From the NCBI GenBank assembly GCA_000002445.1, contig CH464491.1, forward strand, positions 1,824,001-1,888,000: a DNA stretch of 64,000 nt, given 5' to 3'. This document shows, piece after piece, positions 6,541-50,684 of the stretch. The first letter of the stretch is position 1; each line of letters starts with the position of its first letter. This DNA comes from Trypanosoma brucei. Lineage: Eukaryota. A program made the translations under genes and the position numbers. The notes under the pieces were generated by a model. That model searched no databases. It was not told the DNA's origin and worked only from the letters and a program-made list of their open reading frames with translations.

Positions 6541-6769
6541 GGGACTTTCCTTCTTATTTATTGACTTGTTTTGCGTGCGTTTCTTTCCTCCCTCCCTTTG
6601 TGCTTCAGGTCCCCTTATGCACCTTATCTCTTATTGTTGTTGCTACACTCCCTTTTTAACAAATTCCTGCTAACGTAAGTCCCAAGCAAGAAATATTGCA
6701 CTTCTGTCAACTGATATGTACTTCGGTTGTTAGCAACTCAATGGCGATATACCGGTGAAGTTCGAACGT

Positions 6770-6835
6770 ACTCCTTTCAAAAAAAAAAGTCGAGATTTGC
6801 TTTTCCATGGCAAGAAGAAAAAAAAGGAGAAAATA
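6770..6835 (-). promoter_or_regulatory. Putative polypyrimidine tract plus AG trans-splice acceptor region for the leucyl aminopeptidase mRNA (minus strand)
   Basis: About 240-290 nt upstream of the ATG (6540) the minus strand reads ...ctctattttctcctttttttttcttcttgcc...tttttttttgaaaggag. This is a pyrimidine tract followed by AG dinucleotides, the canonical kinetoplastid SL-addition signal. The exact acceptor was not determined. Confidence 0.35.
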
Positions 6836-7526
6836 GAGGCGCAGGAGTGACCGCATATTGGTATCAAGGGTGTGAGAGCCTTGGTATCTGTCAAGTTTAA
6901 GAATTTTTTTGCCTTTCAAAAAAAAAAAAAGACAAAGACAAAGTTACCCCATTTCTTCCGTCAACGCAACAGTGGAAGCGTAGAAACAGAGAAAGGGACA
7001 AAGAAACATTAAAAACAGCAGTAAGGGTGATAATGATAATAATAATAATAATAAAAGTACGACCTGTCTCCTGATTTAGCACTTGTTTGGCCCGTAAATT
7101 TTATCCATCCTGCGGGCGACTTGTCATTACCGCCTCCCCCCCCCCCGCCCCTCCTCAGGTAATAATCCGCTGATTCGCTTCTTCAACTTACCTTTCCTTT
7201 ACCCTTACTTTCCACATCTTCTTTTTCCCCCTTTTTAAAAAAATCTCTCTTACTTTTCCTTTTTCCCTTTTCTGTTCCTTTTGATTCAATTTTCCCCAAT
7301 AGTTCTCTTCTTCTCTCTCCTTACATTATTTTTCTTCCTTAGGTTTCATTTTTGACATATTTCCCCCATTCCCAGCACCCATACATCTACAACCCCCTCC
7401 AAATGTTGCAACAGCAAAACGGAATAGGGAAGAAGGTGGAGACAGGACAGGAGAAAAGAAAAAAAGAAAGAAAGAACCAACGTCTAATTCGGATATTCAA
7501 TTAGAGAAGAGGGAATAAACTTACGC

Positions 7527-7552
7527 ATATATATATATATATATATATATAT
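7527..7552. repeat. (AT)13 microsatellite
   Basis: Read directly from the sequence. Confidence 0.95.
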
Positions 7553-10047
7553 TTCCCCTCCACCCTTTCAACTGTAGGATATATATAAAAAAAAGTAATT
7601 GATTGCTAATGCTACTATCATTATTATTAGAAAAAATGACAATAATAGTGATAATAGCAATAACAATTATTATAATAACAGGAATAGCAGTTACATATAT
7701 ATAGTTTTAATATAGATATAAACAGCACGAAACGCCGTGAGTAGTAGTAGTAGTAGTATTCCACCGGCAACTTGTGTAAGTCCAAGTGCACGTGCAGAAA
7801 AGTGAGTGCATATTTTTTTTTTAATTAGAAGTGCTTGGTTGTTTGTTTGTTATTAATGATAATTGAATGGAAAGGGGGAGAAATGAATTTAAATTAGCGT
7901 AGATATTTTTATGTTCGTAAAATAAAGGAAGAAAAAAAACAGTAATTGTGGTCACAAAGACAGCAACTGTGGCAGAATAATATGGAAGGTCTAAATGAAC
8001 GAGAAAAAAAAAACACCGCTGGAGTATCAGAAGAATGTCCCGACACCTTCAGAAACAAAAAACAAAAGTGGGTGAAAAATGATTTCTCATCATTATCAAT
8101 ATATATATATAATACATACATGTTTATATGCATGTATGTATATCATACCCCTACGGGGTCAAAAAATGATTGTAAACATAGCTTAAAACGTTTCAACTGG
8201 ATAAAGAAAGTAAATAACATAAGCGGCGACAACAACTAAAAAGAGAAAAAAAAGGTTATGAAACATGCAAAGAAAAAATAGTAGTAACAATAACAATAAT
8301 AAGAGTAATAGTAATGGCAGTAGTAACAATAATAATAAAAATAAGATAGCGAAATTGGCAGAAGCAACACTTCCTTCCACCCACCACAGACGCCACGCAA
8401 AGAAACAAACAAACAAACTAACACGTAAACGCAAACATGCACGCATATACATATATACATATGTGCATACATTCATTCCTTTTTGTAGCCAATCCCTCAT
8501 TCAATATCTCTGAAAGCTGCAATAATCATTGTAGTAATTCTTATCACAACAGTTCCTGCTTATGTTCCTGTTGTTGTTTTAACAGAAGGGGACAAGAAAA
8601 GGAAAAGGAGAAGCGAATGGGAAACCCTTTTGCCCTTAACCCCTTTTCGTTTCTTCCCCTTTTTTGTTTTGTTTTGTCTTGTTGTTTTTCATTTTTTATT
8701 TTTTTTTCTTTTTGTGATTCTCCCTTAGCTTTTCACTTCTGGACACCCACAGCGCCACGCCTCGATGAGCCAAATCGCTCAGTTGGAGCGGGTAAACGAA
8801 ACAAAACAAGCAAACAAATACAGAGTAAGCAGTAATTTAAAAAAGGGGCTCCAAACAGGCACAAGTATGAACTGTACGCTCACACGCGCAGCAGTTCATC
8901 TCTCACACATGTTAACAAACAAGACATGCTATCACCGAAAATAAGCAGAAATAAGCAGAGTGAAAACAAAAAAAACGAAATAAACGAAATAAAAACAAAA
9001 CGCAACCGGACGCATGCATATACAAACAAAAATGTATACACGTACATACGCACGTGCATACATAAATATATATGTAATTTTTGTGATATATTTATAACAT
9101 ATATATATATAGATAGATAGATAAATTTATCAAGAGGTGTGAAAGGGACAAAAAGAGAGAATTGGAAGCATATGTCATCAACTACATATCATCTGTCACC
9201 GGCCGACACAACAAGCCGCAGTAAACACAACAGCGGGGAAAGGAAAATACACAAATGCGTATACAAGTAAAATAATCAAATTATATACCTGCATTTGTAC
9301 GTGTTTGTGTTTACATCTTTCATTTCCCTCTTCTTGTATTTTCTTTTCTTTTCTTCTCTTCTTTCATTACTTTCTTATTTCATTTTTCAGCCCATTCAAA
9401 ACCAATTTTGGAAATTTTAAGTGAATGGGCTTTCCTCTTTTTCTTTTTCGTTTTTTTTTGTTTTCAGCACAAAATTTCCTTCTTTCCCCCCTCCGTCCTG
9501 CTGCCGCTGTCGCCCCTTTCAGCTTCAAACTCATTGTTACAAAAAGCAACATCCCGCTTCTTTTCGCCATGATATGTGTTGTAGGCATTCAAATACGGTA
9601 CATTTTTCTTTCATACACTCATCTCCTCACCTGCAAACTTTTCCCTATTATTTTTGTTTTGTTTTTGTTTTATTCTTCTTCCTTCCTTCCTTTCTTCCTT
9701 TTCCCCCTTCATCTCTCTCTCTCTCCTTATCCACCCCATTTTTTTTCTGTTTCCATCATCACTACTTTTCATTATATTTTATTAAAATAAAATATAACGC
9801 AGATCTTACTCATTTCCTCTTTTGTTTCTTTCCCCTTCCTTTTGTATTCTTTTTTTTTTCATGAACTTCTCCACAGCTCTTTTGTCATCTCCCTTCTTTG
9901 TTCTTTTTGTTTTATTTTTGAGACATGACCGAATAATCTCCGCTGAATGAAAGGAGGAGAGGGGGAAAAAAAAAACTCACACGCTCCATCATGCATTCAA
10001 CGTTTTCCTTTTCTTTTTTTTCGTTTCTTCTTTTTTTTTTTAATTTA

Positions 10048-10049
<2 letters not shown>

Positions 10050-10078
<29 letters not shown>
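10050..10078. repeat. (TA)14 microsatellite, preceded by T10
   Basis: Read directly from the sequence. Confidence 0.95.
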
Positions 10079-10080
<2 letters not shown>

Positions 10081-11924
10081 CTTTTTTATTACCAATTAGA
10101 ACTATTATTAATATCATTATTTTGCTCCCTTTCTCTTCATCTTTTTTTCTTTTTTCTTCTTCCTTCTTTTTCTTAATGTCCTCCGAGAGGGGGGGGGGTA
10201 AAAAAAAAATGACAAAAAAAAACACACGCCAAATGAAAGAAGAAGAAGAAGGGAAAAAAAAAAAACAGACGCATGCGCATGTTTTTGTTAAGATTCAAAA
10301 ACAATTCTACACCTTCTATTGCGCCGCCACGACACCCTCACCACAACCACCACCATATTTTGAAAAATAAAAGACAAAAACCAAAAAAGAAAAAGGGAGA
10401 AAAAACAAAAGCTCTGAGAAAATCATTAAAGTCACACGTGGAAAGTTAACAAAAATAATAATATAAGTAAGAAAAAGAAGGAAGGAAAGGAGAAAAAGAA
10501 AGGCGGCATATGATACGAAACATCGATTACATTTATTTTATAAAATACCCACTTTGGTAGGAGGGGAGAAAAAATATATATATACACACACACCTCCGCT
10601 AAATTCTCTCTATTTCTTCTTTTCTTTTTTCTTTTCCGTGGGTGTGTTGTTGTTTTTGCTTTTTCTCTTTTTTTTGAAAAAAAATTACGTTTTTTTTTTT
10701 CCACGGGGATCAAATTCTTTCCTTCCGTCAAATCTCCCACACCCGCCCTTGTCAAATTTTTATTTATTTATTTATTTTTCTTTCATTTTGTAATTCCTTC
10801 CTTCCTTCTTTCGTTTCTTTTTCTTTTTCTCTTTTCTTTTGAAAACTTTACTTTTTATTTCCTTTCACCCCGAGTTGGTTGTAAAATTGTTGTTGGTGGT
10901 GGGTGGGAGCAGAAAAGCAGCAAAATGAGGGGGAAAAACAAAAAAAAAGGTGGTGAGCGCATGAGCAAAATAAGACGTGAAATAAAAAAACAAAAGTATT
11001 TATTTAGTATTTATTTTATTTTATCTTTTTTCACTCACCCTCCCAAATTGTATTTGCTACGCTCTCATCAGATACCCGTTACAACAACCACAAAAAGAAG
11101 AAAAAAGGAAAAAAAGAAAAGGAAAAAAAAAGAATGACGAAGCAAGCAGAACGACAACAACAACAATAACGGTGGTATAAATTTAGAAGGCAAAAGTCAA
11201 AAGAGTACAATAATAATATTATTAGTAACAGTAAAGAAAGCGAGTTCGTTTATTAGCTTTTTTAAAACAAAAAAAACAAAAAAAAAGCGTTTTGAACTTA
11301 TTTACATCACGTTCTGGAATAATCTCTTTTTCCTCCTTCCTCTTTCCTTTCTCACGATCCTCGAACCGAACAATAGCCGAACGACGCCACTTTTTTATAT
11401 TTTCTTTCTCTTTTCGCGGATAGAAGTTTGAACGCATAATAACCGTAAAAAAAAAAAAAAATCATGCATGTATTCATATTCTTACCGTCTATTTATATCT
11501 CTTTATACCTCTCCCTTTTTTATTCTCTCTTTCTTTCTCTTTCTCTCTCTTACACACACACACACACATATACATACACATACACATATAGACAGTTTCT
11601 AGATTTAATTGAGAGCACCAGTGACGGAAATGTAAACTTAATATTGTAGGGAAAAAGAAAAAAGGAAACAAAAAAGGACACAAAACACATTCTCCAGTGC
11701 TCTGCAAAAAAGAAAAAAGAAATTAACGGATACAAGAGGGTGTGCAAAGGGGATGGGGAAAAAAAAAGGAAATATATAATAAAACATATAAGAAAACATG
11801 TTCATATATAAAACATACACGTATATCTCTGTGTATATTTTATTTTCATGCATTATATTCCCCATTCATTCATTATTTGTTTTAGTTTCCTCCCCCTCCC
11901 CTTTTTTTATTTTATTTTATTCCG

Positions 11925-11977
11925 TGTGTGTGCATGCGTGTGTGTGTGCATGCGTGTGTGTGTGCATGCGTGTGCGT
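11925..11977. repeat. Three tandem copies of a 16-bp unit GTGTGTGTGCATGCGT
   Basis: The three units are exact. Confidence 0.9.
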
Positions 11978-13114
11978 ATATCTGAATTTGTGGTTTTATA
12001 CTCTCTTCCTTTCCATTATTTCATTTGTACGCAATCAAAAATGTTTCAACAATCGCACATGTTTCATCTTATACGTATTCCTTTTCTTTTCCAGTTTCTT
12101 TACTCATTTAGTTATCCATCCACTTATTCATTCATTATTGATGTGTACATTTTATATGGAGCTTCCTTTAGGGTAATGGAGGGAAACACGTCATTTCCCC
12201 TTTTTTTCTTTTTTTTTAAAAAAAACAAAACAAAACAAAAAGACATAAACATGAAAGCATTAAAACATGTAAAAAAGGGGGAAAAAAAAGCAAAATGAGT
12301 GCTTGGAAGGATGTAAGGAAAATGTGTAAGTTTGTGGGGTGGGGGGTGGGGTGGGGGGGAAAAAAAGACGCGCAAGTGGGTGCACAATAATAAATACTGG
12401 TAAGAAGAAAAAAGAAAAAGAAATAAAAGTCAACAAATATATATATATATATAATTACATATAATTATATATATAATGCAGAGAGTAAACTTAATGCACC
12501 TCACTTGCTTCCCCCTTTCCAGTTAATGCTGCACGCACTTCCTTCACAGCACCGCCACCCCACCTCCTCCTCCTCCCCCCCTCCCCCTTTTCTTTAAAAA
12601 AAGATAAAAACTTTAGATTTTTTTTTTTATTCGTCTCTTTTCTTTATTCCAAAACGGGATATTTTTGATTTGTCAGGCACATCATCCGCAAAATATTTTC
12701 ATCACATGTCTTCTCTTCTCTCTTTTGTTTTTATTTTTTATTTTTTATTTTCTTCTTTTCTTTTCATTTCGTTCATTCACATTAACTTCCCGCCACTGTT
12801 TCTGGAGACGCGTTATGAAAAAAAGAGTTTGAAACCACCGACACAAACAAACACAGCGCACACACACGCAGAAAAGAAAAGAAAACATCCACCAGGTAAA
12901 TAAATAAACAAAATGAATGAATGAAAGCAATAAATGAAAGCAATAAATAAAAAGGGAAGTGAGAGAAATGATGGAGAGAAAGCAAAAAAAAAAAAAGAAG
13001 AGAAAGATATAAATGTGTAAGAACGAATGCATTTGAGTTTCATAAGCATGCCAAAAGGAACTCAAGACGCCGGCTTTTACCTCTTTTTTTTAATTATTAT
13101 TATTATTACACATG

Positions 13115-13172
13115 CACACACACACACACACACCACACACGAGCACACGAATTATATATATATATATATATA
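13115..13172. repeat. Compound microsatellite (CA)n followed by (TA)n
   Basis: cacacacacacacacaccacacac ... atatatatatatatatata. Confidence 0.9.
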
Positions 13173-16100
13173 ATTCATGAACAAGAAAGAAAAAAAAGAA
13201 AGAATTGGAAGAGGAAGAGGAAGAAGAAGAAGAAGCATAAAAGGAATAAAAGATAAAACGAAAAAAAAAGAGATGTAAATAACTACTATAACCATAATGG
13301 AAAAGCAGTATAATGAAATTATATCACCAGTAAAATTATAATAATATTATCATTATTATTAATAACAATCAACAACAAAAATAATGTAAAGACCTTTTTA
13401 AAAAAAGGAAAAGGAAAGGAAAAGGGGGAAAAAACGAGAAACGGCGCGTGTCAAAGCATAATAGAAACAAACGAAACCGATTGCCAAAGGATAGATGTAT
13501 AAGCACACAATAACAAAAAGTACCAATCACACATATGAAAAAAGTAAAAAAAACAAAGGCTCTGTAAAAACCCGATCAAAACGCCCAAAAGAAAAAAAGA
13601 AAACAACTGAAATATAGCCCATTAATCAAGATGAAGAGTATAAGGTGAAGGGGGGACAAAAAAAAAACAACGATCAACCAACAAGAAAGGGAGAGTAAAA
13701 AAAAAAAAAAGGCAAAAAAAGGAATAAGCAAAAACGGACTTGCGCTTGTGGATGATTCCCTTTCTTTTATGAGTATAACGTGAAAAGTATATATGAAAGC
13801 ATCCTTTGGATAATACGCATCCGTTAAACAACAAAACAGAAAAAGAAAAAGAAAAAAAATGCACTCTTTCAACGTGGTACAACACAGAGACCAAAAAAAG
13901 AAAACGTAATCACTCAACCCCGCAAGCACCTCTGAAAGCAAAACAAAAATGAGTTTTAATTCGCTTCCACCAACGTTTTCCTCTTTTTTTCTGTCTCTTT
14001 TCTTTTCTCCTTTTTTTTTTCTTTATGTCTCCTCTTGTTGTTTTGATCAAACCCCTTCAGAGTAGCGCTCATTCAATCATTTTTTTCTTTCCTTTTTTTT
14101 TCGGTTCTTGTTTAACCTCCTCCTGCACAATTTTTTTCTTTTTTGCGGTGCCCCTTTAGTGTCACCCAAGCCATCGAGAAAACATAAAAAGAAAAGCATA
14201 AATAAACGTAAAACACAAAAAAAAAAACAAAAAAGAAAAGAAAAGACAATACAACAAGAAAAACAAGACAATCAATTGGATGAAAAAAGAAAAAGAAAAA
14301 GGGAGGGGGGAAAACACAGAAGCAACACGACACCAAGAAAAAAAAAAGACCAAAAAAAAACTAAGCAGCAGGAATGCGGCTCAGTAACGAAAATATATAA
14401 ATGAAAAAGGAAACCAAGAAAAAAAAAAAGAAGGAAGAGGAGGAGGGATGTGGGGAAGGAGTATTAATATACAGCGGTGCAAAATATTTTAGCCTCCTCC
14501 GTAATCGCCACCACCGCCACCGCCATCATAATTTTCACATCCTCCTCCGAGTCACAAGTGTGCGCGGGATGAACCTCGCAAAAAGAAGAAAAAACATAAA
14601 CGACAAAAAAAAAAAAAATAGAGAATTGTAAAATGCCGCTTTCATCGCCTCCATTTTTGGTGCCATCATTTCGAACCTGCACCTTACCAACGTCTCTTCC
14701 CTGGAAAATAAACTTTTTTTATTTTGAGTTTTTAATCATGTCACGTTTCCTCTCATTTCTTTCCGTCACATCATACATTCGAGATAATATCTCAAAATGT
14801 CTCTCCTTTTTTTTTTACTTCTACAGGTCAGCAGCGGCAAGTTGAAAGGAAACGGGAAAAGCATCACATAAAAAAAAAACACAACGACCTCTACCTCCCG
14901 CTAAATATCAATAGCTTCCGTTCCCTTTTTCATTCTTTATTTTCTCTTTTACATTTTTGTTTCTTCGTGTTCCTTCTTCTACCGTCCCCCTCCCTCACTA
15001 ACTCATTTATTCATTCATTATGCCTCATTTCAGCTGCACTCGTATGGAATGCACGTTAAAAAAAAAAGGATCAGAGAAAGGAAATATTGAACGCTGTCAC
15101 AGAGTCTTCATGTCCATCCACAGTGATACGAACGAAGGTGTTCAAAAAACAAAAAACAAAAACAAAAACAAGGGCAGTTGGGGCAACGCTGCGGTCGCAA
15201 ACGTAAAGAGTAAACAAACACGTCAGACAGTGACAGTAAGCACAACAAACAATCAAACAAAGGCTCGACAGCTAAGAAGACAACGCGAGAGGAGGAAAAT
15301 CAGCAAACAAAGGGGGGAAACATATAGAAAAGTGGGTAAAGTACGAAATTGAGTGGGGCTACAAACAACAAAAGACGTATCGGATGGCGTAGGAATAATA
15401 GTGATACAAAAAAGAAAAAGAAGAAAAGAGGGAGTAACATCGGAATGCAGAAATAAAGAAGGAGTAACACGTACTCCCCCCAACTTTCTCACTGGAGTCA
15501 CTCTTCCACGTGGTTATTTTCATTTCCCTCTAAATCCACCTCTTCTCCTCCTCCACTCCGCAAGGGAAGACAAGTTCCATATATTTTACAGATATTTTCC
15601 TACGAAACGCAAAAAAAAAACCTTCCGCTCCTTTCCCTGACCCCCCCCCAAAAGGTGCAACGCGTTATACTTCGCTTCCCTTCCATTCATATACGTACAC
15701 ATATAAATATTCGATTAAATAAACATATACAAATGTGGATATATGAGCATATATATGTATATGAATGTTCGTATTCAATTGTATGCGTGTATTTTGCCGC
15801 GGTCTGCGCCAAATGGGAAGGAGGAAAAAAATAAAAGCAAAAAACAAAAACAAACAGCACAAAATGAAATAAGATAATACGAACAGAAAAAAGAACGCGG
15901 GAAGACACCGTTCCGCTGGTCAAGGCAGGGTTAGGCCCCCTTATTTACCTCAACATCTTTCGACGGACATTATTTACGTTCATTTCCAACTATTACCTTC
16001 ACGTCAAAAGGAAACTGGTGTCCACTACATTTGTTGCATCCCCATCCTTTTCACCTTTTTTTCTGCCATTGATTCGTTTAACCTCGTTCCCCATCCGGGG

Positions 16101-16376
16101 AGGTCGCACAACTCGAGGCATACGTCAGATGTTCTGTTTATTTCCCCCTCACTTCTCTTCTTTCCCCTTCTCTGCACAAAAACAAGGGAACGGGAGAAGC
16201 ACTTCACCCATTTATTATCCCTCTTATTGGTTTAAAGTCGAAACAAAACAACGTCCCGCTGGCTCCTCCACTCCACGACATGATGCCCCACACGGGGAAT
16301 CCGATGAAAACAAAACGGAACACAACACCAAAGCAAAAGGAGCAAAATAGCGTTCACTCCGGTCAGGGGTTCGGTC

Positions 16377-25160: not shown

Positions 25161-26728
25161 TACGCAAACACAGCTTGCGTTGCAGACTACTTTCCCCTAA
25201 ACTGTAACAGCGAGAACTGAGCTATTCACAAGTCAGTGCAAAGGGAGAAAATAGAAGTTGATACACGGTTTTTCAAGTGCTTTTTTTTGTGGTAAAACAA
25301 AGGAAGATGGCAGCATCCTAAGAGTGAGAAACAAAGCAAAATTGACCCACCATAGAAGTATCAAAAGAAAGACACGTGTGTGTTTGCACAACCCACTTCA
25401 AAAGAATATAATAATTTTTCATTTCCTTCCGTGTACGAAAAGGACTTACAATTAGAAAGGGTAAAATCGTATGGAAAAAAACAAAAAAACACAACTTTCT
25501 GCGTCTTCCAGCCCCCGGACACGCCTGATCACAAACTATCCCCACACACTCCTCTTCGTTAACCTTAGTACCGTATAGCGGCAATTGAAATTTGTTATTT
25601 GCCCTCATGTGCGCGTGCATATCTATGTAACAAAAAAGAATATGAAAGTTAGCAACGTCACACAGACAAGTAACTCCTTGCTCCCGCTTCAAAGCATTGC
25701 GCCTCTTTTTGGGGAAAAAAGGGAAAAGGTGTACGAACTTTCGACTGGAAAACGGCGTCAGCACGTAAAACGTGACTATACACAAGAATGGCGAAAAAAA
25801 AAAAGTCGATATGCGGGGACGCACTCATGTACACCAACAAGAAAACGTTTAAAACAAAAAAACTGAAGGAGAAAGAACAACTGTGAGGAAATTCAATAAG
25901 AGGCCCACTACTACCCAATGGTGGGGTTGGTAATTGTCATCGGCAACCCTACAGCCGTGGTTCAGACTGAAAAACGAAGGCAACAAACGTGAAACGAATC
26001 TTACAACGAACATGTTTGGACAGAACAGCTTAGACAATTAAGAGAGGGCAGAAACTCTCGATAACATCGCTCTTACACTTTAATTCTTCCTCGCATTACG
26101 AATGATATTTTTTATAGCACGTACCAAAATATGAGTATAGCTGTGTCGTAAACAGGCAATCCCAACAGATCCACATGCAACAAACCACAGACGATAAGTT
26201 TATGTTCTGCGCCACAAACAAGGACCAAATACAACCGAGGACCTACCATCTTGCGGATCAAACCAAACAGTTAGCGTCCCTAAATCATGGTGAATCCACA
26301 CAATAAACAGATCACAAATCTCATTCAGCTTCATACAAGCAGACACAATGCTGGTAAGGTTGAAACCACGCAACGCACATTACCATCTGCTATAACACTT
26401 TCGTTAAGGAAAAAAAACCATCATGTCGTGTCAGCACATCGTTCACTTCAACCCGAACTGTTTGATACAGTACTTGTACTGTTTCGAAACGCCGGTAGAC
26501 CAATGAGGCATCCCACAGCTTGCAAGTGGCCCTACAAATAAAAAGAAGGGGCTGCCTAGTTAGTTCAACGAGGTTTGAAGATGTACTCCCCTTGTTTCTT
26601 CTGTTCGCGAACAAGCAGAGTTTTGGGAACATATAGCGACTCACCAATATGATCGCCGGTGGAAGAGCCGTGCCAGGCCCAGGCCAAAATAAAATTGTGC
26701 AACATATTCCAGGGAAGGTAGGCTTTCC

Positions 26729-26753
26729 ACACACACACACACACACACACACA
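26729..26753. repeat. (AC)12 microsatellite
   Basis: Read directly from the sequence. Confidence 0.95.
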
Positions 26754-27582
26754 TAAATAAATAAAGTTCGTATTTCCTATCGTCAAAACCACAATCTAAA
26801 CGATGATCCTCGAACTGACGCATTCAACTCACTCACCGTCATGGCTATTTTATTAAAGAGTAAAGTCCTAATCAGTAGTCCTCTTTTTTTCGTAATGGCA
26901 GTTTGCCGATAGAATAATTAAGTCTTGACGTTTAAACTGAAAAGACGTCTAACAAAGTTTCAAAAGGACAATATATATTTATATTCGCTTTTGGTTGATT
27001 TCGATAATAATCACTTTAATACCAACACGGACCATTGTGCCCGGTAATGGCTGTATCCTTTACATCACCACGATTTTTATCATATGTAAGAATTTTGCAA
27101 CAAAAAGTACAGGGAGTATTACCCGTACAAAGTTATGGGGTCATACACAAAATTTTCCACTGACGAACTTGTCCCAGTTAAGTTTCAGTAAGCCGCATGA
27201 GTGCCTAAACCCTCCCTGTTGCCACTATCACACAGACTTAATCATACGAAGCAGAAGTGAGGTAAGTTTTCTGTGATGTTGTGTTTACCTTTTCCCCATT
27301 CCCTCTTATCTCCTTCCTGTGATATGCCAGTCAGAGAACAAAAGAGGGGCTTCAAAGACAACCAGGCGGTTTTGTTACCACAGATTTCTTCCACAATGAC
27401 AAAACACGTTTAAAGTCTTTGAGAGTAGCGACGCACGCCCGCTCACGACCAAATACAAAAAACTTTCGATAATGGCCACGGTTCTTACCCTGTATTGCAT
27501 CGGAAGCTGGCAATAAAAGTACCTTCCTTAACTTTCTGACGGTTACGTAGGCCACCATCAACACTGGGGAGAAAGAGGAACC

Positions 27583-27615
27583 ACATACACAGACACACAC
27601 ACACACATACACACA
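27583..27615. repeat. Imperfect (CA)n microsatellite
   Basis: ccacatacacagacacacacacacacatacacaca. Confidence 0.9.
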
Positions 27616-30600
27616 AGTCACATGTATGTTTTTTCTCCTCATAGAGAATTGCGGCCAGTTTGTTAGGAAGATCGCATCAGCAAACAACATAAGCGTATCG
27701 CCTTCCATGAACGCTGAAGAGAACACGCGCGGTCCACAGATAATGAGTACAGCGCTACCGCCCGCGTACAAAATATACCCCACACCTCCTGTAGTCGCAC
27801 ACGTAGACGCGAACAAGTCCCGAACATCATCACCTGTGCTTTGCCGGTTCCCAGCGCGAGACCGCAACACCCACCAAGGCGCGGCAACCGCCAACGCAAC
27901 GAACCAGAAGCCGAATTGCCGCTGAAAGCGACGCTCCCGAACGCGCCCGGCGCCGGCCGTCAGCAGTGGCATGACAGTTTCCGGTCCACGGAAGCCGGCC
28001 CCAACCCCATCCACGGGTTCCGGATTTCCGCCTCCCACCGGAGGAAACACGGCAGGCTTAACCATCACCTGCTCTTTTTTTAATCACGTGGTGACGTGCG
28101 CGCCAAAGAACATGGGGTCGACCAGGGAAAACAGTAAACTGTGGAAGGGTGGGGAAGCTTGTAGTCATCCGCGCCCCTGGAAAGCATAACTGCCCACTGG
28201 CCGCTAAACCCAGAGCGAGACCACCGTGTTCGGGGGCCAACAAGAGGGGCGCTACTCGGGAAAGGGGGAATGCACCGCCGCCCCCACGTCGATGCTGGTA
28301 CAGAAAGAGGTGAAGAACCGGGTGACGCCATGCAGCGCCGCAATGCAGGAAGGGACCGTCCCGCATGCGCGCACCCGCTTGACAACGACCGCGTCGGCAT
28401 TGGCCAGAGCGTTGGGGAAACGCTGCGGTAACAACCCCCGCCAACCAGGCGCGAGGTCAAAGAATAAACAAATAGCGGAAGCCCGAAACCACCGAAAGAC
28501 AAAGCCTCAGCCGGTGCTACCCCGCGGTGACAGACTGCATGCTGTCTAAGTGAGCTCCGGGCCGAGGGAAAACTGAGCGAACTGCGACATGGAGCGGGAG
28601 CACCTACCATCAAATGGCCCCGAGAAATAAACGGTCTACACATTCGAAAGGGTTAGGGCTCCCGAGCGTGCATTTCAAAACCAAGCAGCCATTAACACCA
28701 CAAGGCCGATCACCCCAAAGGAGGTTGGCAAATGTTTCGTCCCACCACGGTGAGATTGTCAGGAAACAGCCCCATTTACAGGAAGGGCGCCCCCACACCC
28801 AGTGCGGCCACGGGTGGCGCGGTCTTGTGGGACCTAACCTTCGATGGGGAGTCGCCAGCCCAAGACATTTCAAATTAAATAGAACACTCCACCGCAGATT
28901 CCGGGGTGTGCAGCCGCATTCCGCTGCAATATTTAAACTGCGGCGGTGGTTGCTCGCCGTCGCGCTTCAGTGAGGTGCTAAGAACGAAAACGAGAAAGGA
29001 TACCTTTTCCCACCAATTCTATCCGGCCCCCATGATATCGGCCGCTCGTCCGATATTTCTTCACCTTAGACACATTTTTCGAGGGGCTGTGTTCTCAGGC
29101 CTCGATTGGCGGCGCCCTTCGTGGAAACACCAGACCAACGGAGCGACTACCGCGGTACCGCTACGGGCGCGGATGGCAATTTGTTTGTCTCCTTGCGCCC
29201 CATCCCCCACCCCATCCTTTAAGAGGCTGAAAGAAATCGGGTTCAACGCCGGAGTTCACCGACAAGTTGCGGCCCCTTCGTTGTAGGAGCGCTGGTGTTG
29301 TAATGCTCTGAGATTTCCAAGCATTTGCTTAGGTTTTTGGGTTAGTCCCGCCCCGCTGGACGTGCACTCCGAGAGGGGGTGCCTTCCCGAAAGCGTGTTG
29401 CGGAAAGCAACCCTTTTCGCACGCCACGGGCCTTGCCCCTCGCGCTTGAGCACTGCGTCTTAACTGGAAAGGTTCCTTCAACCTTGCATGCGGCCCCACT
29501 CACCGTGGAGACATCGATTGACATTTTTGGGGGTGGGTTGGTGACGTTACGGGGGAGAGAGTCTGACCACGAAAAAAAAACTCACGGAGCCCGGTGCGAA
29601 TTACGAGCGGGTCTGGAGGCGTTGTTTCCGGGCTGTCACCCATCCACGAGTGGACGCGGCAACATAAGCGCACGACTGGGATCTACAGAGGTGTGATTTG
29701 GGAATGTGGGCAGTACCGCCGACGCCCCTTGCTCGATGGAACCCAGCTGGACGAGGAGCAACCGCAACCCGAGAATGCTGCAACAAAAACCTTGGTCCAA
29801 ACATTTCCTATGCGAACGATTCCCTACGACCTTTGCTGCAGTTGCCGTAGCGACGGGAACCAACAGGGAGAAGCTGGGTCCTGGCAGCCGAGTGCCCCCA
29901 CCGAAACATTGAAAACGGAAGGTCCCACCGAGGCGGACGTCCCAACTTTAAGCACACAATTCGTTGTGTCTTAAGGGACCTGTCGGTGGCGCCGCACAGC
30001 GGGTGCCGACAAAGGGCTTTGAAAGACGACCCGTGATTCACACGGGGGTACGGCAGCACAGGCGGAACGGCTTTTGATGCGCGTGAAAGCGAGTACGAAG
30101 CAATGGTACAGAAGGTTTTCATCACGCGGATGGCACTTCGAGCGACCGGCCGCTGGCAAACCACCGGAAACGCTTTGCGGAAACTGGGGTTGATAAACGG
30201 AACAAAGTGCAATGAGGATAACCATCTAAGGAATTCAACCTGCACTGTAGTCGAAAGGGTGGTGTGGAAGAGGGAAGCAGCAATGGCGCCCCGTGCAGGT
30301 TGCCTGCTGTTGTTGGTTAAAGTTGCTGTTTCACGCTTTTGGAGGAGCGAGCCAGCTGCGAGAGCAGCGCTAGGCAGGCATCAGCGCACTGACGGAATCG
30401 CGGGAAAGGACCTTCACACAAAAACCAGTGGAATAGAGGGGTTGTAGTACGTTGACTCGGTTAACGGCACGGGCTCGGGAGGAGGAAGTTCCTTGCACAA
30501 CCGTCATGGAGAATGAGTAAATCATTTTTACCCAGGGGCGACGGAAGCGTCGCCCAGCTGGCGTGGAACACTTAGGTTACACCACATTGTGGGTGAAGGG

Positions 30601-31756
30601 TTCGTTGGGAATAGGCACACATGTGCGAAACTGACGATGTCAAAATTCACACAGTTTGGATGAAGTTGTTTGATAGCATTCTTCTGCGACAGCGGACAAA
30701 ACCCGGTCAAATGCCCTATGGAATGCGGCGGAGTGCGGCGTCGATTGCGCCCGTTGGGATTAAAGACTTCCACTTGGCCCCTCCACGTGGATATCACTGA
30801 GCACCAACCGCGCCGGACGCAGAGACCCGGTAAACCTAAAAACGTTTCCTCTTACTGCGCCGCAAGGCGCCTTCGTTCTCTCCACAAAATTCCCCAGGGT
30901 CTGCAGTGGTTCCGGAGAACGCGGGGAAGCGCCCTATCCTGTTTATCCGAAAAACAACGAAACCCTGTACCTTTCTTTCAGCGTTGTTCCCACGTCTTCC
31001 CCGTGGTTAACGGTCCAGCCGGGGAACATACGTAAAAAGTTGTGCCCAACTTGCTTAACTTGGCTACAAATGTGAAGCACTTGCACCCCTTACGGAAAGA
31101 GTGTGCCACTTGATCCGCCTTCACTACTACGCGTCTTTCAACCGGGAAGCAAAAGTAGAGAAGAAAGCAAGCATTTAAGCGTCAGTGACAAGCAACACTC
31201 ATCTTACAACCCTCGCCCTGTGCGGGGGTGGCATTTATAACAATGATCCGCGTTCCGTGCGACGCCTTCCAAGAGACAACTTCAATGTTTCAGTCTTCCT
31301 GACCTCACGGCGTAGTGTGAAGCAGGAGGCAAGAGGGTAAAACAAACCCCCCGCTTCACGTTCCACCGTCCCTATCGAAACATTTATGAAACAATACGAA
31401 GAAAGGGATTGCTGTTACTTAGACGAACTTTGGTCCATAGGTTTTGCTCCCACAAACTTATGGATCCAAAAAAAAAATTGCTTCGTTTAAGGGAGATGGA
31501 CGCGAAAAACAGACGGAGCCGACAGTCACAACAACACAAACATGACCAAAGCACCGTGATGAGAGCGTTCGCCGCAGCGGGCTCACACGTCCCTCGCTAC
31601 ACCACTGAGGCTATTATGTTGTCAAATATGACGTGCAGGGAACAACCGCAGGCGAACTGGGGCCTCCATTGCCCACGTAGTTCCAAAGGTGCTTCAAGTT
31701 GCCCACAAAGAGGGGAGGATGTGACGGAAAACGCGGGGTTCACACCTATTTTATGC

Positions 31757-34564
31757 TCAGAACACAAATACACTTTGAGCATCGCCAGTTTGATCACTGG
31801 GTTGTGACGCTGGTTTCATCTCGACTTTCCTTTTCCTCCGTTCAGTTGGCGTTTGGAAAGAGGTGACAGGGGTTGCGCCGCCCACGGAAGCGGCCGCAAC
31901 TCTACGTACCTCTTCTTCGGCCCCTGGCGGCTGTCGGGACCCGACAGCCGCTTTCTTCGCCGCTCGTGGCGTCTTCCCCTTTTCCTTGCTCTTGCTGCGC
32001 CGCGCTGTTGAGGCGGCGGGCCTTTCCTTTGACACCTTCGCCCTCTTCGTCGGTACGGCCCCGTCTTCTTCGCTGCCCCCTTCTCGTTTTCTCTTTCGAC
32101 CCTCAGCAGTTTCTCCCGCGTGCACTGGGGGTTCGTTGTTGGGTGCAGGCCGCTTATCCGCAGACGAAGGATCAGACGCGAACAGTTGTCGCCGTTCTTT
32201 CCGAACTTCCGCGAGGCAGCTGCTCAGCATCTGCCCGTCCTCTGGTTTTGCCGCTCCCAACGACACAATATCTTCCGATTCAATGGCAAGTCCTTGCGCG
32301 TGACCCCGAGCACCTGCAACACCTCTTGAGTTTGTTTGACCGCCGCACTTAACCTGAATTCTGCCAAGTCGGTCAACGCCCTGCACCACTATGTCATCTA
32401 AAAAGCTTCCCGCACAAACCGCATCAATGTCGACGTCATGTACGAGCACATCGTCGTGAAGACCAACATCCACAAAGGCACCGAACGTTGTGACACAACG
32501 CACCACCCCCGCAAGTTTGTCCCCACATTTAATGTCTGCCGCTCTTGGGGCGCGACGGAAATGGCCGGCAAAAGGCAGTTCGGAGCGGGGATCTAAGGCC
32601 GGTGTTGCCAGTTCATGGGCCAACAGTTCAAGCGTTGCCTTACCACATCCCAGGCGCTCCGTCAGTTCCTTCAATTCATTTTCCTTCATGTCAAGAAGTT
32701 TACGCCCAATGTCGATCCGCTGTTGTCCCTTGAACAACTCGATCAGCCTCTGCACAATGGGATAGGACTCGGGGTGAATGTTAGAGCCGTCCAGTGGGTT
32801 GGTGGAATTAGGAAACCGAAAGAAACCTGCAATTTGCTTGTAAACAGTTTCAGTCATCCCTGGAACGCGACGAAGGTCTTCCCGACTCATGAGCTTTTTG
32901 GCGTGACGCGCGAGAACAATTTGGTCTACCATGCGCTTTGTCACACCCGGTATTTTTTCCATCACGTAGCGGTTTGCAACCATTGCGTTAACACCAACTG
33001 ATGCTACGCACGACTCCACCACTCGATTCAATGAGCGCGTCAGTTCGACCTCACTGATGTCATGTTGGTACATACCAATGCCCATTGATCGAACCGGAAC
33101 CTTTACCAGCTCACTCAACGGATCGATGACACGCCTGCCAATGCTCACCGCTCCGCGGTACATTGGGTCGAGGGTGGGAAACTCTTCCTTCGCGACATCG
33201 GAAACAGAGTAAACACTGGCGCCTGCTTCACTGACAATAGCATACTCGACGCTCAGGTTCTTCTCCTTGATGGTGGCGGCGACAACATCGGCCACGTCCC
33301 CCGAGGCAGTCCCGTTTCCGATAACAATTTTGTTAAGATTCATTTTCCCGACCGACCCACCGATATATTCTTTCATCTCATCCTTCTTCGACAAGGTGCA
33401 GCAAAAGCACGCAATAACACCGCCGTTTTCGTCTAGTGCAACACATTTAACACCCATTTTGAAGCCCGGGTCCATCGCAAGTATTCTCGCATCCCGCATT
33501 GGGCGCTGGAGGAGGATATGGCGAAGGTTGTGTGCAAAGACAGCCAGAGACTCTTTTATTGCACTCTTTTTGAGATCGCGCCGGACCGTCGCGTGCGTTC
33601 GCCGCACCACTTGTTTGCATGCCTCCTCAAGGCACTTCTGCAGAAGCTCCCCAGCTACTGAAGAAGTAGGTCTCCGCGCTCCATAAAATTTCCGACGAGC
33701 CCACGCAAAGAAAACATCCTTGTCCCTATTGCTTTCGGCCATTTTAACTTTCAACACACCCTCACTTTCGCCACGTTGCAGTGCCAGGAAATGGTGTGCA
33801 CTAATCCGTTGCACCGGCCACACCTTGCCACCATACCACTCAAAATGCTTCTTATTCTTTTCAAAAGAATCGGAATTCGCTGACTTTCCCCCAGGCTCCC
33901 CAGCAAGTGCACAACTAATGGTGCCGCTCCGCCTGCACTCCGTTAGCATGATCTGCCGTACCTCATCGCAACGCTGCACCTCCTCCACCACAATTGCCCT
34001 TAGCAACTTTTCACCGTCGTCCACGCAGCGCAGACGCTGCTGCACATCGTCGATGGGATCCGTCGTATACAACAATTTTTTCGCGAGAGGTTCCAGTCCC
34101 GCCTCACGCCCCCTATGTGCCAGACCCGTCTTCTTTTCTTTAAACGGCTCCCACGCATCCTCTAGCTGGTTCAAATGAACTAGCTTCTCAAAGGTCTCTT
34201 GAAGTTCCCTCGTAAGGAGGTTACGTTTCTCCAAACTTTTTAACATGAATTCGCGGCGTCGTTGCACTTCCCGTAGCTCCTCCGCCATATCAAGCAGCTG
34301 CCGGATTGTTGTCTCGTCGAGGTAACCTGTTTCGTCACGCCGATACCGCGCAAGAAAGGGCACAGTTGAACCTTTCTTAGTCTGCTCCACAACATAACAT
34401 GCAGAGCCTTGGGGTATGTTTAGCCGCTGTGAAATAATGCGGTACAAGTGTGTTTCGCTGTTGCCCGCCTTCTGTGCCTTGGTGGACATCGCGCGCAACG
34501 AAAAGGTAACCGCTAGTACTGACCTTGGGTGCGCTGGTACAATTCTTTTAACGTACCGCAGCAT
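31757..34564 (-). CDS. Tex / SPT6-like transcription accessory protein (HTH, YqgF, HhH, S1 domains), bacterial type, with a possible organellar presequence
   Basis: The N-terminus FLARYRRDETGYLDETTIRQLLD matches the conserved Tex motif FIARYRKExTGxLDE. A C-terminal S1 domain is present (GDKLAGVVRCVTTFGAFVDVGLHDDVLVHDVD), followed by a K/R/A-rich tail. The total is 935 aa. Confidence 0.8.
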   Translation of the reverse strand: MLRYVKRIVPAHPRSVLAVTFSLRAMSTKAQKAGNSETHLYRIISQRLNIPQGSACYVVEQTKKGSTVPFLARYRRDETGYLDETTIRQLLDMAEELREVQRRREFMLKSLEKRNLLTRELQETFEKLVHLNQLEDAWEPFKEKKTGLAHRGREAGLEPLAKKLLYTTDPIDDVQQRLRCVDDGEKLLRAIVVEEVQRCDEVRQIMLTECRRSGTISCALAGEPGGKSANSDSFEKNKKHFEWYGGKVWPVQRISAHHFLALQRGESEGVLKVKMAESNRDKDVFFAWARRKFYGARRPTSSVAGELLQKCLEEACKQVVRRTHATVRRDLKKSAIKESLAVFAHNLRHILLQRPMRDARILAMDPGFKMGVKCVALDENGGVIACFCCTLSKKDEMKEYIGGSVGKMNLNKIVIGNGTASGDVADVVAATIKEKNLSVEYAIVSEAGASVYSVSDVAKEEFPTLDPMYRGAVSIGRRVIDPLSELVKVPVRSMGIGMYQHDISEVELTRSLNRVVESCVASVGVNAMVANRYVMEKIPGVTKRMVDQIVLARHAKKLMSREDLRRVPGMTETVYKQIAGFFRFPNSTNPLDGSNIHPESYPIVQRLIELFKGQQRIDIGRKLLDMKENELKELTERLGCGKATLELLAHELATPALDPRSELPFAGHFRRAPRAADIKCGDKLAGVVRCVTTFGAFVDVGLHDDVLVHDVDIDAVCAGSFLDDIVVQGVDRLGRIQVKCGGQTNSRGVAGARGHAQGLAIESEDIVSLGAAKPEDGQMLSSCLAEVRKERRQLFASDPSSADKRPAPNNEPPVHAGETAEGRKRKREGGSEEDGAVPTKRAKVSKERPAASTARRSKSKEKGKTPRAAKKAAVGSRQPPGAEEEVRRVAAASVGGATPVTSFQTPTERRKRKVEMKPASQPSDQTGDAQSVFVF

Positions 34565-48989: not shown

Positions 48990-50611
48990 TGCTACCGCTT
49001 ACTTACTTTCCCCTTTTAAACTTATCCACTCCGATCTAACCTTTGATTTTTTTTAAAAAAACCGACACCGTTATCGTTTTCCCCTTACTAACAGTATGAA
49101 GGTAAAGAAGGTGGACTGCATAATTTTGAAATAACGTGGCGACGAAAACGAACAAGCTCCCAATATATAATGGATATTCATCACAAGGAGGAGAAATTGT
49201 ACCCAGATGTAAGCAGCGGTCAATGTCCACGAGCGCAAGGGCAGCAACTACCTGTCCTTTAAATAATGAGGATCTGCGTGTACTCTTCGGCGGCAAGGGA
49301 GCAAGCACAGCTCCGACACACCAAGGGAATAGCTCGCATAACCGGTTACGTGCGCTAGTGTACTGCCTAAGGTAGACAGAGTTTTCCACACAGAAAAAAA
49401 GAGTATGGGCTTAGAATAACCTCACCGTGGGGTGACTTAGGGAAATCAGGAGGCACCACAAACACCGACAAAACTTCGCGTATTTACTCGGCCGCAAGGC
49501 GCACAAGACCACCACTAGCCCAACCGTTGAAGTGGATCAAGCCAACTCAAGAGTCTTGAATAGCGAAACAAGCAACGTAGCCATAACACGGGCAGTTTCC
49601 TTCGCCGCCGCTCCGGGAGAAGGGTATAAAGTAGCCGCAGTAAAAACCCGACACTGGCAAAACCAGAGACGCATCCCCGGCTTCTGCAAACCTTAAAGGG
49701 AGACCGAAGGGTGCGGGGCGTAGAAATCCAGCACATACATATACGACCACCCACCTGTACCCCGACTCACAAGCGGTCCAAAACATCACAACGTCGCGCT
49801 CTGCTGTCCTGAACACTCGGTAACACACACTTCCCCGCCAACGAATACCCACCCCGCGCGAGTCAACCACCGCACCAACTCACACAATGAAGCAGCAGCA
49901 ACACGCTTCCAGGTCAGCCAATCGGTGGGCACGCGGACCCTCAGAACACACCCATCACCCCAAATACGCTGGCCACACGGAGCTGCACCACTCGGACGCT
50001 CACTCAGCACCGAAACGGCCGCACCAAGAATGCGTAGATTTTTGTTTGTTACTGCGCGTGTTTTGGAAGTGCGCACAGGGGGTCCGTCTCTCGAGTCAGT
50101 ATCTCAGTAAAGAATCGGCTGTACGGGCTTCGGGGAGTTGAAACCACCGCCCTTCCACCTCAACACAAGCCTGGTGGTGAAGCAAGCTGCTGGCGCTCGA
50201 CTTTCCCCTTCTATCGCAGGTTAGTGAACTCAGGCAGCGGCACCAAGGATGGAAAAGAAGCAACATCTTCCCCCTTTCTTCAAAATGTATTCCTTCAAGG
50301 ATCGACAACTTGCCACGCTGCAGATCCTGCGGGTCAAACGGACGGTGAATAAAGGAAAGTGGGATATACTTCCCTAACGGACTTTGTTGCCTGGCCCCTT
50401 TTTCGCCCATCTTTTTCGATTTTTTTTTTTGGAAGCAAAAACGGATGCAAAAAAAAAAAAACAGGTTGGAACTCGCGGGCACCGAGACATTCGAAAAGGG
50501 GAAAGATGTTTTGCCAGCAGATACCGAAAATATCCTCAGAGGTCGAAATCCGCTACTGAGCACTTTCCTCCAAATATAATGACGAGAATTATCTTCGCTG
50601 CTGCGCCTGCC

Positions 50612-50682
50612 GCGCCGTTGGTCTAGTGGCATGATGGTACCCTCCCAAGGTATTGACCCGGGTTCGATTCCCGGACGGCGCA
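50612..50682 (+). tRNA. tRNA-Gly (anticodon CCC)
   Basis: A 71-nt cloverleaf: acceptor GCGCCGT/ACGGCGC, D-arm with AGTGG, anticodon stem GTACC/GGTAT with loop CTCCCAA (anticodon CCC), T-arm CCGGG-TTCGATT-CCCGG, discriminator A. It is near-identical in pattern to eukaryotic tRNA-Gly-CCC (GCGCCGCTGGTGTAGTGG...GACCCGGGTTCGATTCCCGG.CGGCGCA). CCA is not encoded. Confidence 0.9.
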
Positions 50683-50684
50683 TC

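What the first reader, a model, noticed from the sequence alone, without database searches (positions are those of the whole stretch)
28069..31756. A 3.7 kb GC-rich, high-complexity block with no ORF in any frame
Ordinary spacers in this window are AT/low-complexity. This interval, between the Tex-like gene and the next ORF, is different: it is GC-rich, non-repetitive and information-dense, but has stops in all six frames. The longest ORF is 187 aa and is Arg/Ser/Pro/Gly-rich, as expected from non-coding GC-rich DNA.

If the doubtful 27352-28068 ORF is not real, the gene-free interval runs from 25161 to 31756 (6.6 kb).

Candidates are a degenerate retroposon (DIRE/ingi/L1Tc-like remnant), a decayed pseudogene, or a structured long non-coding RNA or unusually long GC-rich 3' UTR of the Tex-like gene. 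Other long ORFs in the window are intact, which argues against sequencing frameshifts.
Basis: partly seen in the sequence, partly recalled or inferred. Interest (0 to 1): 0.55.

Follow-up and report, generated by a model that had tools for sequence, protein, structure and literature searches.

The report
Untranslated orphan transcript, GC-rich relic DNA
The GC-rich, ORF-less stretch is real, but it is not a recognisable retroposon or the Tex gene's 3' UTR: it is Trypanosoma brucei-specific DNA, sitting where related trypanosomes carry a nucleoside-transporter gene, that is annotated as the long transcript of an orphan "gene" (Tb927.11.6650) which shows very few ribosome footprints and is broken in T. 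b. gambiense.

Summary
The window is T. b. brucei TREU927 chromosome 11. About 27,700-31,150 is 57% GC, against 42% for other non-coding DNA. It is non-repetitive, has no coding periodicity, and its ORF lengths match chance.

- **Retroposon (DIRE):** not supported. There is no RT/EN/RNase H similarity, no Pr77 hallmark and no target-site duplication. The same test clearly detects a genuine DIRE at 51.3-54.1 kb in this window.
- **Tex 3' UTR:** refuted. The annotated Tex-like mRNA is 3,521 nt for a 2,808-nt CDS.
- **Pseudogene:** T. cruzi and T. melophagium carry an ENT nucleoside transporter in this slot, and T. vivax an ingi-type element. No trace of either remains here.
- **What it is now:** the block lies inside the annotated 4,447-nt transcript of Tb927.11.6650, a "T. 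brucei spp.-specific protein". Its 237-aa ORF (27,352-28,065) carries a nonsense mutation and a frameshift in T. b. gambiense, and all 8 substitutions before the frameshift change the protein. Published counts show poly(A)+ RNA at neighbour-like levels but about 10-fold fewer ribosome footprints.
- **Structure:** no excess RNA folding.

Verdict: lineage-specific relic DNA, co-transcribed and processed into an essentially untranslated RNA. Its origin is unresolved. The finding is ordinary to mildly interesting.

The parts
27701..31150 (.). GC-rich (mean 57%), high-complexity block with no ORF and no coding periodicity
27352..28065 (-). Annotated 237-aa ORF of Tb927.11.6650 (old ID Tb11.02.4490, XP_828739.1, 'T. 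brucei spp.-specific protein'). Probably not a real coding sequence. Its N-terminal about 120 codons lie in the GC block.
   Evidence: The exact sequence is in the collection under that name. In T. b. gambiense it has a nonsense codon at position 111 plus a 2-nt frameshift, and 8/8 substitutions before the frameshift are non-synonymous. The ribosome-footprint to RNA read ratio is 0.06 against 0.39-0.87 for the neighbouring genes.
26688..31455 (-). Envelope within which the annotated 4,447-nt Tb927.11.6650 transcript must lie. This is inferred. The 5' end is either at about 31,134 (AG after the polypyrimidine tract) or about 31,455 (AG after the T10 tract). The 3' end is correspondingly about 26,688 or about 27,009.
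   Evidence: Exon size of 4447 in the TriTrypDB GFF, quoted in supplement file 3 of PMC9136415. Polypyrimidine tracts come and the sequence. The transcript must cover at least 1,542 nt upstream of the ORF, containing at least 23 upstream AUGs.
31151..31167 (-). Polypyrimidine tract followed by an AG at 31136-31135. Candidate trans-splice acceptor for the block transcript.
   Evidence: consensus-type inference only
27582..27615 (.). (CA/GT)17 microsatellite inside the annotated ORF, and the site of the 2-nt length difference that shifts the frame in T. b. gambiense
29581..30750 (+). Sub-block whose GC skew (+0.12) and AT skew (+0.14) on the + strand run against the polycistron. The skews resemble the sense strand of ingi-type elements. 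This is a weak hint of an antisense-oriented ancestral coding element.
25161..27351 (.). Ordinary AT-rich (41% GC) spacer between the block/ORF and cytochrome b5 (Tb927.11.6640)
31757..34564 (-). Tex-like gene Tb927.11.6660 (upstream neighbour). Its mRNA is 3,521 nt, so it does not contain the block.

Best explanation
The block is Trypanozoon-specific, non-coding relic DNA in the 6.6-kb gap between the Tex-like gene (Tb927.11.6660) and cytochrome b5 (Tb927.11.6640) on T. brucei chromosome 11. It occupies the position where stercorarian and T. theileri-group trypanosomes keep an ENT nucleoside-transporter gene. RNA polymerase II reads through it as part of the minus-strand polycistron. Polypyrimidine/AG signals within it probably direct trans-splicing and polyadenylation, giving the roughly 4.4-kb poly(A)+ RNA that databases annotate as the mRNA of the orphan gene Tb927.11.6650. 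That RNA shows very few ribosome footprints: its only annotated ORF follows at least 1.5 kb of leader with at least 23 AUGs, is under no purifying selection, and is disrupted in T. b. gambiense. Shown here or in public data: the composition; the absence of coding signal, repeats and homologues; the synteny; the ORF decay; and the annotated transcript size and published read counts. Inferred: the exact transcript ends; that the sequence has no function; and that its high GC reflects a former coding or mobile-element origin now decayed beyond recognition.
For: Identity of the locus. Synteny is Tex -> nucleoside transporter -> cyt b5 -> MCC-beta in T. cruzi and T. melophagium. The block is present, at 99% identity, in T. 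b. gambiense and T. equiperdum. SNP density is like neutral DNA: 10.7/kb in the block, 14.6/kb in the AT spacer and 2.8-5.2/kb in CDSs. There is no period-3 signal and ORF lengths fit chance. The dinucleotide signature is nearer to non-coding DNA and the DIRE (0.09) than to the CDS pool (0.119). Annotated exon sizes are 4,447 nt for .6650 and 3,521 nt for .6660. Published counts summed over 11 library pairs give 108 ribosome-profiling reads against 1,804 poly(A)+ RNA reads for .6650 (ratio 0.06). The neighbours have ratios of 0.66, 0.39 and 0.87, while RNA reads per kb of ORF are similar to Tex. The ORF is broken in gambiense. The best open frame, 190 aa, finds only two repeat-inflated, unrelated matches and no credible homologue among 1.84 billion representative proteins.
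Against: Why 3.4 kb of apparently unconstrained DNA stays at 57% GC when the surrounding non-coding DNA is about 42% is not explained. Transcript ends were not seen directly, only an annotated length. The read counts cover the annotated ORF, not the whole block. One ribosome-profiling replicate has 64 reads. No T. congolense sequence could be obtained, so the age of the block is only bracketed as present in Trypanozoon and not detectable in T. vivax. Copy number in the whole genome could not be tested. Only one of many open frames was searched with full sensitivity, and the broad word-indexed search was defective.
Confidence: 0.6

Rival explanations
1. The block is an extremely decayed retroposon (DIRE-like or another element), probably inserted antisense to the polycistron, that displaced or followed the loss of the transporter gene. 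This concerns origin only and is compatible with its present status as untranslated transcript DNA.
For: T. vivax carries a near-intact ingi-type element (RVT_1 6e-26, RNase H, zf-C2H2) antisense in the slot upstream of cyt b5, with the same layout: GC-rich element, about 2.7 kb of AT-rich spacer, then cyt b5. Sub-block 29,581-30,750 has ingi-like strand skews on the + strand. The dinucleotide signature is closest to the window's DIRE. There are A9 and A10 runs on the + strand at 29,572-29,580 and 31,468-31,477.
Against: No similarity to ingi-type proteins on either strand, in a test that scores the window's real DIRE at 221 bits against a null of 59+/-17. No Pr77 hallmark. No TSD. No Pfam hit, although that test also misses the control DIRE and is therefore weak. 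No DNA similarity to the DIRE or to anything else in the window.
Confidence: 0.2
2. The block is the decayed remnant (unitary pseudogene) of the ENT nucleoside-transporter gene that occupies this position in other trypanosomes, possibly with additional lost genes.
For: A PF01733 transporter gene lies exactly between Tex and cyt b5 in T. cruzi and T. melophagium. T. brucei lacks it here.
Against: tblastn with three orthologues, a 3-sequence HMM run with all filters off, and the Pfam model all find nothing. There is no codon periodicity. The block is 2.5 times longer than the gene and far more GC-rich (57% against 44% for the T. cruzi gene).
Confidence: 0.07
3. The block encodes a functional Trypanozoon-specific long non-coding RNA, with regulatory or scaffolding roles as described for other T. 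brucei lncRNAs.
For: It is present in poly(A)+ RNA at neighbour-like levels with very few ribosome footprints. It is retained without indels in three Trypanozoon genomes. Its composition is unusual.
Against: SNP density is at the neutral level. There is no excess thermodynamic structure (mean z -0.22, like CDS and spacer). There are no Rfam matches. No sequence outside Trypanozoon is available to test covariation.
Confidence: 0.1
4. Tb927.11.6650 is a genuine, young protein-coding gene, and the block is its unusually long 5' UTR.
For: The ORF is annotated. Its N-terminal part has the best codon-usage score among the three frames locally and looks hydrophobic and membrane-like. One ribosome-profiling replicate gives 64 reads.
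Against: In T. b. gambiense it has a premature stop and a frameshift, with 8 of 8 substitutions non-synonymous. A GT microsatellite lies inside the ORF. Ribosome density is 7-15 times below the neighbours. At least 23 upstream AUGs precede it. It has the highest SNP density of any 'CDS' here, 15/kb.
Confidence: 0.05
5. The block is the 3' UTR of the Tex-like gene.
For: It starts directly downstream of the Tex stop codon on the same strand.
Against: The annotated Tex-like mRNA is 3,521 nt for a 2,808-nt CDS, leaving only 713 nt for both UTRs. A separate 4,447-nt transcript is annotated in the gap.
Confidence: 0.02

Closest known systems
Untranslated or 'unlikely' orphan ORF transcripts and lncRNAs of T. 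brucei (annotated 'T. brucei spp.-specific protein'; poly(A)+ RNAs lacking ribosome footprints in the Jensen 2014 / Antwi 2016 datasets)
   Same: Trans-spliced and polyadenylated-type annotation, RNA present, very few footprints, ORF restricted to T. brucei and not conserved even between subspecies
   Different: Unusually long (4.4 kb) and unusually GC-rich. It sits where relatives have a conserved transporter gene.
DIRE (degenerate ingi/L1Tc-related elements) of trypanosomatids
   Same: Kilobase-scale, stop-riddled, high-complexity DNA inside or between polycistrons. The dinucleotide signature is similar to the DIRE at 51.3-54.1 kb. T. vivax has an ingi-type element at the equivalent site.
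   Different: No RT/EN/RNase H remnants, no Pr77 hallmark, and no TSD or poly(A), in tests that detect a genuine DIRE in the same window
Unitary pseudogene of an ENT (PF01733) nucleoside transporter
   Same: Exact syntenic position between Tex-like and cytochrome b5
   Different: No residual sequence similarity or codon phase. Length and GC content do not match.
Long 3' UTRs of trypanosome mRNAs
   Same: Lies downstream of a CDS on the transcribed strand
   Different: The annotated Tex mRNA is too short to include it. It is GC-rich rather than U-rich or low-complexity.

Membership tests
DIRE / ingi-L1Tc clade retroposon | Recognisable remnants of the APE endonuclease, reverse transcriptase, RNase H or C2H2 coding region | tested here: not met
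   tblastn with T. vivax ingi-type ORFs gives no hit in the block at E<1, but hits the control DIRE at 51,328-54,068 at 6.5e-13. The colinear band score is within the shuffled null for the block and 221 bits for the control. Pfam six-frame scanning is negative but insensitive.
DIRE / ingi-L1Tc clade retroposon | 77-79-nt Pr77 signature at the 5' end | tested here: not met
   The L1Tc Pr77 sequence (from PMC1874656) and its conserved cores find nothing beyond chance 9-12-mers anywhere in the window. Only the L1Tc version was used. A 5'-truncated copy would also lack it.
DIRE / ingi-L1Tc clade retroposon | 3' poly(A) tract and flanking target-site duplication | tested here: not met
   Only A9, A10 and T7 runs are present, and no shared 9-mer or longer lies at the candidate boundaries.
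DIRE / ingi-L1Tc clade retroposon | Dispersed related copies in the genome | not testable with these tools
   Single copy within the 64-kb window. No T. brucei whole-genome DNA search was available.
ENT nucleoside-transporter pseudogene | Residual similarity to PF01733 or the orthologous transporter proteins | tested here: not met
ENT nucleoside-transporter pseudogene | Orthologous (syntenic) position | tested here: met
   The order is Tex -> transporter -> cyt b5 -> MCC-beta in T. cruzi and T. melophagium.
3' UTR of Tex-like mRNA | Block contained in the Tex-like mature mRNA | tested here: not met
   The annotated mRNA is 3,521 nt against a CDS of 2,808 nt. This comes from published annotation, not from reads.
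Long non-coding (untranslated) poly(A)+ RNA | Stable poly(A)+ transcript covering the sequence | tested here: inconclusive
   The annotated 4,447-nt exon must include at least 1.5 kb of the block. Poly(A)+ read counts are available only for the ORF part.
Long non-coding (untranslated) poly(A)+ RNA | No translated, conserved ORF | tested here: met
   The footprint/RNA ratio is 0.06 against 0.39-0.87 for the neighbours. The ORF is disrupted in gambiense. There is no coding periodicity.
Structured functional RNA | Folding energy below shuffled expectation, or a match to a known RNA family | tested here: not met
   Mean z is -0.22 over 33 windows, no different from CDS and spacer. Rfam finds nothing. 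Covariation is not testable because there are no homologues outside Trypanozoon.

The most novel reading that the evidence does not exclude
After loss of an ancestral nucleoside-transporter gene, the Trypanozoon lineage acquired a GC-rich sequence of unknown (possibly foreign or mobile) origin. This sequence is now maintained as a functional, abundant long non-coding RNA, or as a locus of de novo gene birth (Tb927.11.6650). Its high GC content would be held by selection or biased gene conversion rather than being a decaying relic.
Probability: 0.1. Interest if true: 0.5.

Novelty: new member of a known kind. Interest (0 to 1): 0.22.

Why it matters
The main value is for annotation. The data argue that Tb927.11.6650 should be treated as a non-coding or untranslated transcript rather than a protein-coding gene. 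They also show that a GC-rich, stop-riddled block in a trypanosome polycistron cannot be assumed to be a DIRE. The locus records a lineage-specific loss or replacement of an ENT nucleoside-transporter gene in salivarian trypanosomes, with an ingi-type element at the same slot in T. vivax. That may interest people working on purine salvage and drug uptake. The unexplained persistence of 57% GC in apparently neutral DNA is a small open question about mutation bias or the age of the insertion.

Tried and rejected
- **Pfam on six-frame translations:** negative, but the same approach also failed on the RT region of the genuine DIRE. It carries little weight.
- **Concatenated block ORFs with X spacers against the 5.8-billion-protein index:** returned nothing, even though the query contained 144 residues identical to XP_828739.1, which is in that collection. 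This negative is unreliable and is disregarded.
- **Translating a whole 1,200-codon frame for the exhaustive HMMER search:** Only one 190-aa frame could be searched. Its two 'hits' are artefacts, a 33-residue weak match multiplied by tandem zinc-finger or fn3 repeats.
- **Codon-usage log-odds scan:** shows strand composition effects rather than frame-specific signal.
- **Fragment-wise phmmer:** a poor control, because stops split the alignments.
- **First diagonal-band test:** swamped by weak HSPs. It was replaced by a thresholded version with a shuffled null.
- **Logan contig L001, ending about 470 bp after the Tex stop:** has no spliced leader or poly(A), so it says nothing about mRNA ends.
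- **T. equiperdum:** too close to TREU927 to polarise substitutions.
- **T. congolense:** no contig was available. L009 (unknown trypanosomatid) was uninformative.
- **Splice-site supplement of PMC2916883:** does not list the gene.
- **Literature:** no paper mentions Tb927.11.6650 or Tb11.02.4490 in its main text.
Full report
**Locus identity**

The Tex-like ORF (31757-34564, minus strand) is 100% identical to the T. b. gambiense protein. The 237-aa ORF at 27352-28065 is exactly XP_828739.1 (Tb11.02.4490) of T. b. brucei TREU927, on a 5.26-Mb record. The window is therefore TREU927 chromosome 11.

Published gene IDs fix the neighbours:
- Tb927.11.6630 is the MCC-beta subunit.
- Tb927.11.6640 is cytochrome b5.
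- Tb927.11.6660 is the Tex-like, kDNA-associated protein.

The only ID left for the gap is Tb927.11.6650, which is that 237-aa 'T. brucei spp.-specific protein'. All long ORFs in the window are on the minus strand, so this is one polycistron.

**Observation**

The GC-rich block is real and sharply bounded at about 27,700 and about 31,150.
- All 12 of its non-coding 500-bp windows are at least 53% GC (mean 56.9%). Only 1 of 84 non-coding windows elsewhere reaches that (mean 41.6%).
- It equals or exceeds every CDS in GC content.
- It has no tandem or dispersed repeats within the window.
- The longest ORF is 187 aa and the longest open frames are 190 aa.
- These lengths and the stop count are what a first-order Markov model of the block gives. 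The period-3 signal-to-noise is 0.83 against 8-18 for the neighbouring CDSs.
- The block is present at about 99% identity, with zero indels, in T. b. gambiense DAL972 and T. equiperdum. Sequencing error is therefore excluded.

**Comparative context**

In T. cruzi (two haplotypes or strains) and T. melophagium the gene order is Tex -> ENT nucleoside transporter (PF01733, about 450 aa) -> cytochrome b5 -> MCC-beta. T. brucei has the block instead of the transporter.
- The transporter proteins, a small HMM built from them and the Pfam model find nothing in the gap.
- tblastx and blastn of the gap against the T. cruzi, T. melophagium and T. vivax intervals detect only the flanking genes.

In T. 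vivax, cytochrome b5 is preceded by about 2.7 kb of AT-rich DNA and then a 4.3-kb, 60% GC ingi-type element on the opposite strand. That element has RVT_1 at 6e-26, RNase H and C2H2 fingers, and is interrupted by two frameshifts.

**Testing the retroposon idea**

The T. vivax element gave a family-specific probe.
- Against the whole window, it hits a colinear series on the + strand at 51,328-54,068 (E=6.5e-13). This is a genuine DIRE next to tRNA-Gly. It hits nothing in the flagged block.
- A thresholded colinear-band score with shuffled-query nulls gives 221 bits for that DIRE (null 59+/-17, maximum 96). For the block it gives 41 bits (+ strand) and 79 bits (- strand) against a null of 70+/-17.
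- The Pr77 hallmark (sequence taken from PMC1874656) is absent.
- There are no target-site duplications at candidate boundaries, and only A9, A10 and T7 runs.
- Pfam is negative. It also misses the control DIRE, so it counts for little.

Weak hints that a mobile element may nevertheless be the ultimate source:
- ingi-like strand skews occur on the + strand at 29,581-30,750.
- The dinucleotide signature is closest to the DIRE and non-coding DNA.
- T. vivax provides a precedent at the same site.

**What the DNA does today**

A TriTrypDB GFF quoted in the supplement of PMC9136415 gives exon sizes of 4,447 nt for Tb927.11.6650 and 3,521 nt for Tb927.11.6660. Antwi et al. 2016 independently list mRNA lengths of 3,521, 1,085 and 2,672 nt for .6660.6640 and .6630.

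The Tex mRNA therefore has only 713 nt of UTR in total and cannot contain the block. A 4,447-nt transcript carrying the 714-nt ORF must extend at least 1,542 nt into the block, a stretch containing at least 23 upstream AUGs. Two sets of ends are consistent with trypanosome processing rules; these ends are inferred:
- A polypyrimidine tract at 31,167-31,151 with an AG at 31,136-31,135 would place the transcript at about 31,134 to 26,688. Its 3' end would then lie about 140 nt upstream of the next tract.
- A T10-containing tract near 31,470 would place it at about 31,455 to 27,009.

Raw counts in Table S4 of Antwi et al. (neighbours) sum as follows.

| Gene | Ribosome-profiling reads | Poly(A)+ RNA reads | Ratio |
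|---|---|---|---|
| Tb927.11.6650 | 108 | 1,804 | 0.06 |
| Tb927.11.6660 (Tex-like) | 5,010 | 7,537 | 0.66 |
| Tb927.11.6640 (cyt b5) | 2,813 | 7,171 | 0.39 |
| Tb927.11.6630 (MCC-beta) | 6,334 | 7,316 | 0.87 |

For .6650, 64 of the 108 ribosome-profiling reads come from one replicate. RNA reads per kb of ORF are about 2,500 for .6650 and about 2,700 for Tex. The RNA is therefore made at ordinary levels but carries very few ribosome footprints.

**The ORF**

In T. b. gambiense the ORF carries Cys111->stop and a 2-nt expansion of the internal (GT)n microsatellite. All 8 substitutions before the frameshift change the protein. The annotated gambiense product is only 109 aa. SNP density is 15/kb in the ORF and 10-11/kb in the block, against 2.8-5.2/kb in real CDSs and 11-15/kb in spacers. 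There is no sign of purifying selection.

**Other readings tested**

- Sliding-window folding of the transcribed strand gives a mean z of -0.22 (sd 1.1), indistinguishable from CDS and spacer.
- Rfam finds only a tRNA elsewhere in the window, plus sub-threshold noise.
- The most coding-like open frame (29,811-30,380, minus strand) was searched with phmmer against 1.84 billion representatives. It returned only two marginal hits, caused by tandem repeats in the targets.

**Conclusion**

The favoured interpretation (DIRE) fails a controlled test, and the 3' UTR idea is contradicted by annotated transcript lengths. The best-supported account is lineage-specific, neutrally evolving relic DNA that is co-transcribed and processed into an essentially untranslated 4.4-kb poly(A)+ RNA, mis-annotated as an orphan protein gene. 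Its ultimate origin (decayed mobile element, lost gene or other) and the reason for its persistent high GC content remain open. Whole-genome and T. congolense comparisons would settle both.

Noticed in passing
window 51328-54068 (+), possibly extending to about 54,700: A genuine degenerate ingi-related retroposon (DIRE), antisense to the polycistron and just downstream of tRNA-Gly(CCC). It gives colinear tblastn matches to the T. vivax ingi-type EN/RT ORFs (E=6.5e-13), spread over several frames with many stops. Pfam RVT_1 fails to see it.
   Followed up: partly
window 50612-50682 (+) and 50096-50683 (-): A tRNA-Gly (anticodon CCC) sits on the strand opposite to the polycistron. The 195-aa minus-strand ORF that overlaps it is probably spurious.
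   Followed up: no
window 6541-16376: A 9.8-kb gene-free, AT-rich (35% GC, down to 31%) spacer inside the minus-strand gene array. It contains only short microsatellites and no large tandem array. Its nature was not examined.
   Followed up: partly
L007 1599-5905 (-) (T. vivax SOPI01000059.1): A near-intact ingi-type retroposon (three ORFs separated by two frameshifts; RVT_1, RNase H, C2H2 fingers; 60% GC) lies upstream of cytochrome b5. The Tex-like gene is not within the 8.7 kb upstream, so synteny is broken there.
   Followed up: partly
L005 7425-8675 and 13354-14712 (T. melophagium): T. melophagium has two ENT nucleoside-transporter genes flanking the Tex-like gene, plus an extra 1,022-aa gene. 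T. cruzi has one transporter, and T. brucei has none at this locus.
   Followed up: no
window 25161-26688: About 1.4 kb lies between the inferred end of the Tb927.11.6650 transcript and the cytochrome b5 mRNA (annotated as 1,085 nt). It contains five polypyrimidine tracts and is not accounted for by any annotated transcript length.
   Followed up: no
tool behaviour: A long query made of ORFs joined by X spacers returned no hit from the word-indexed protein search, although an identical 144-residue stretch is in the collection. Negatives from such composite queries should not be trusted.
   Followed up: yes
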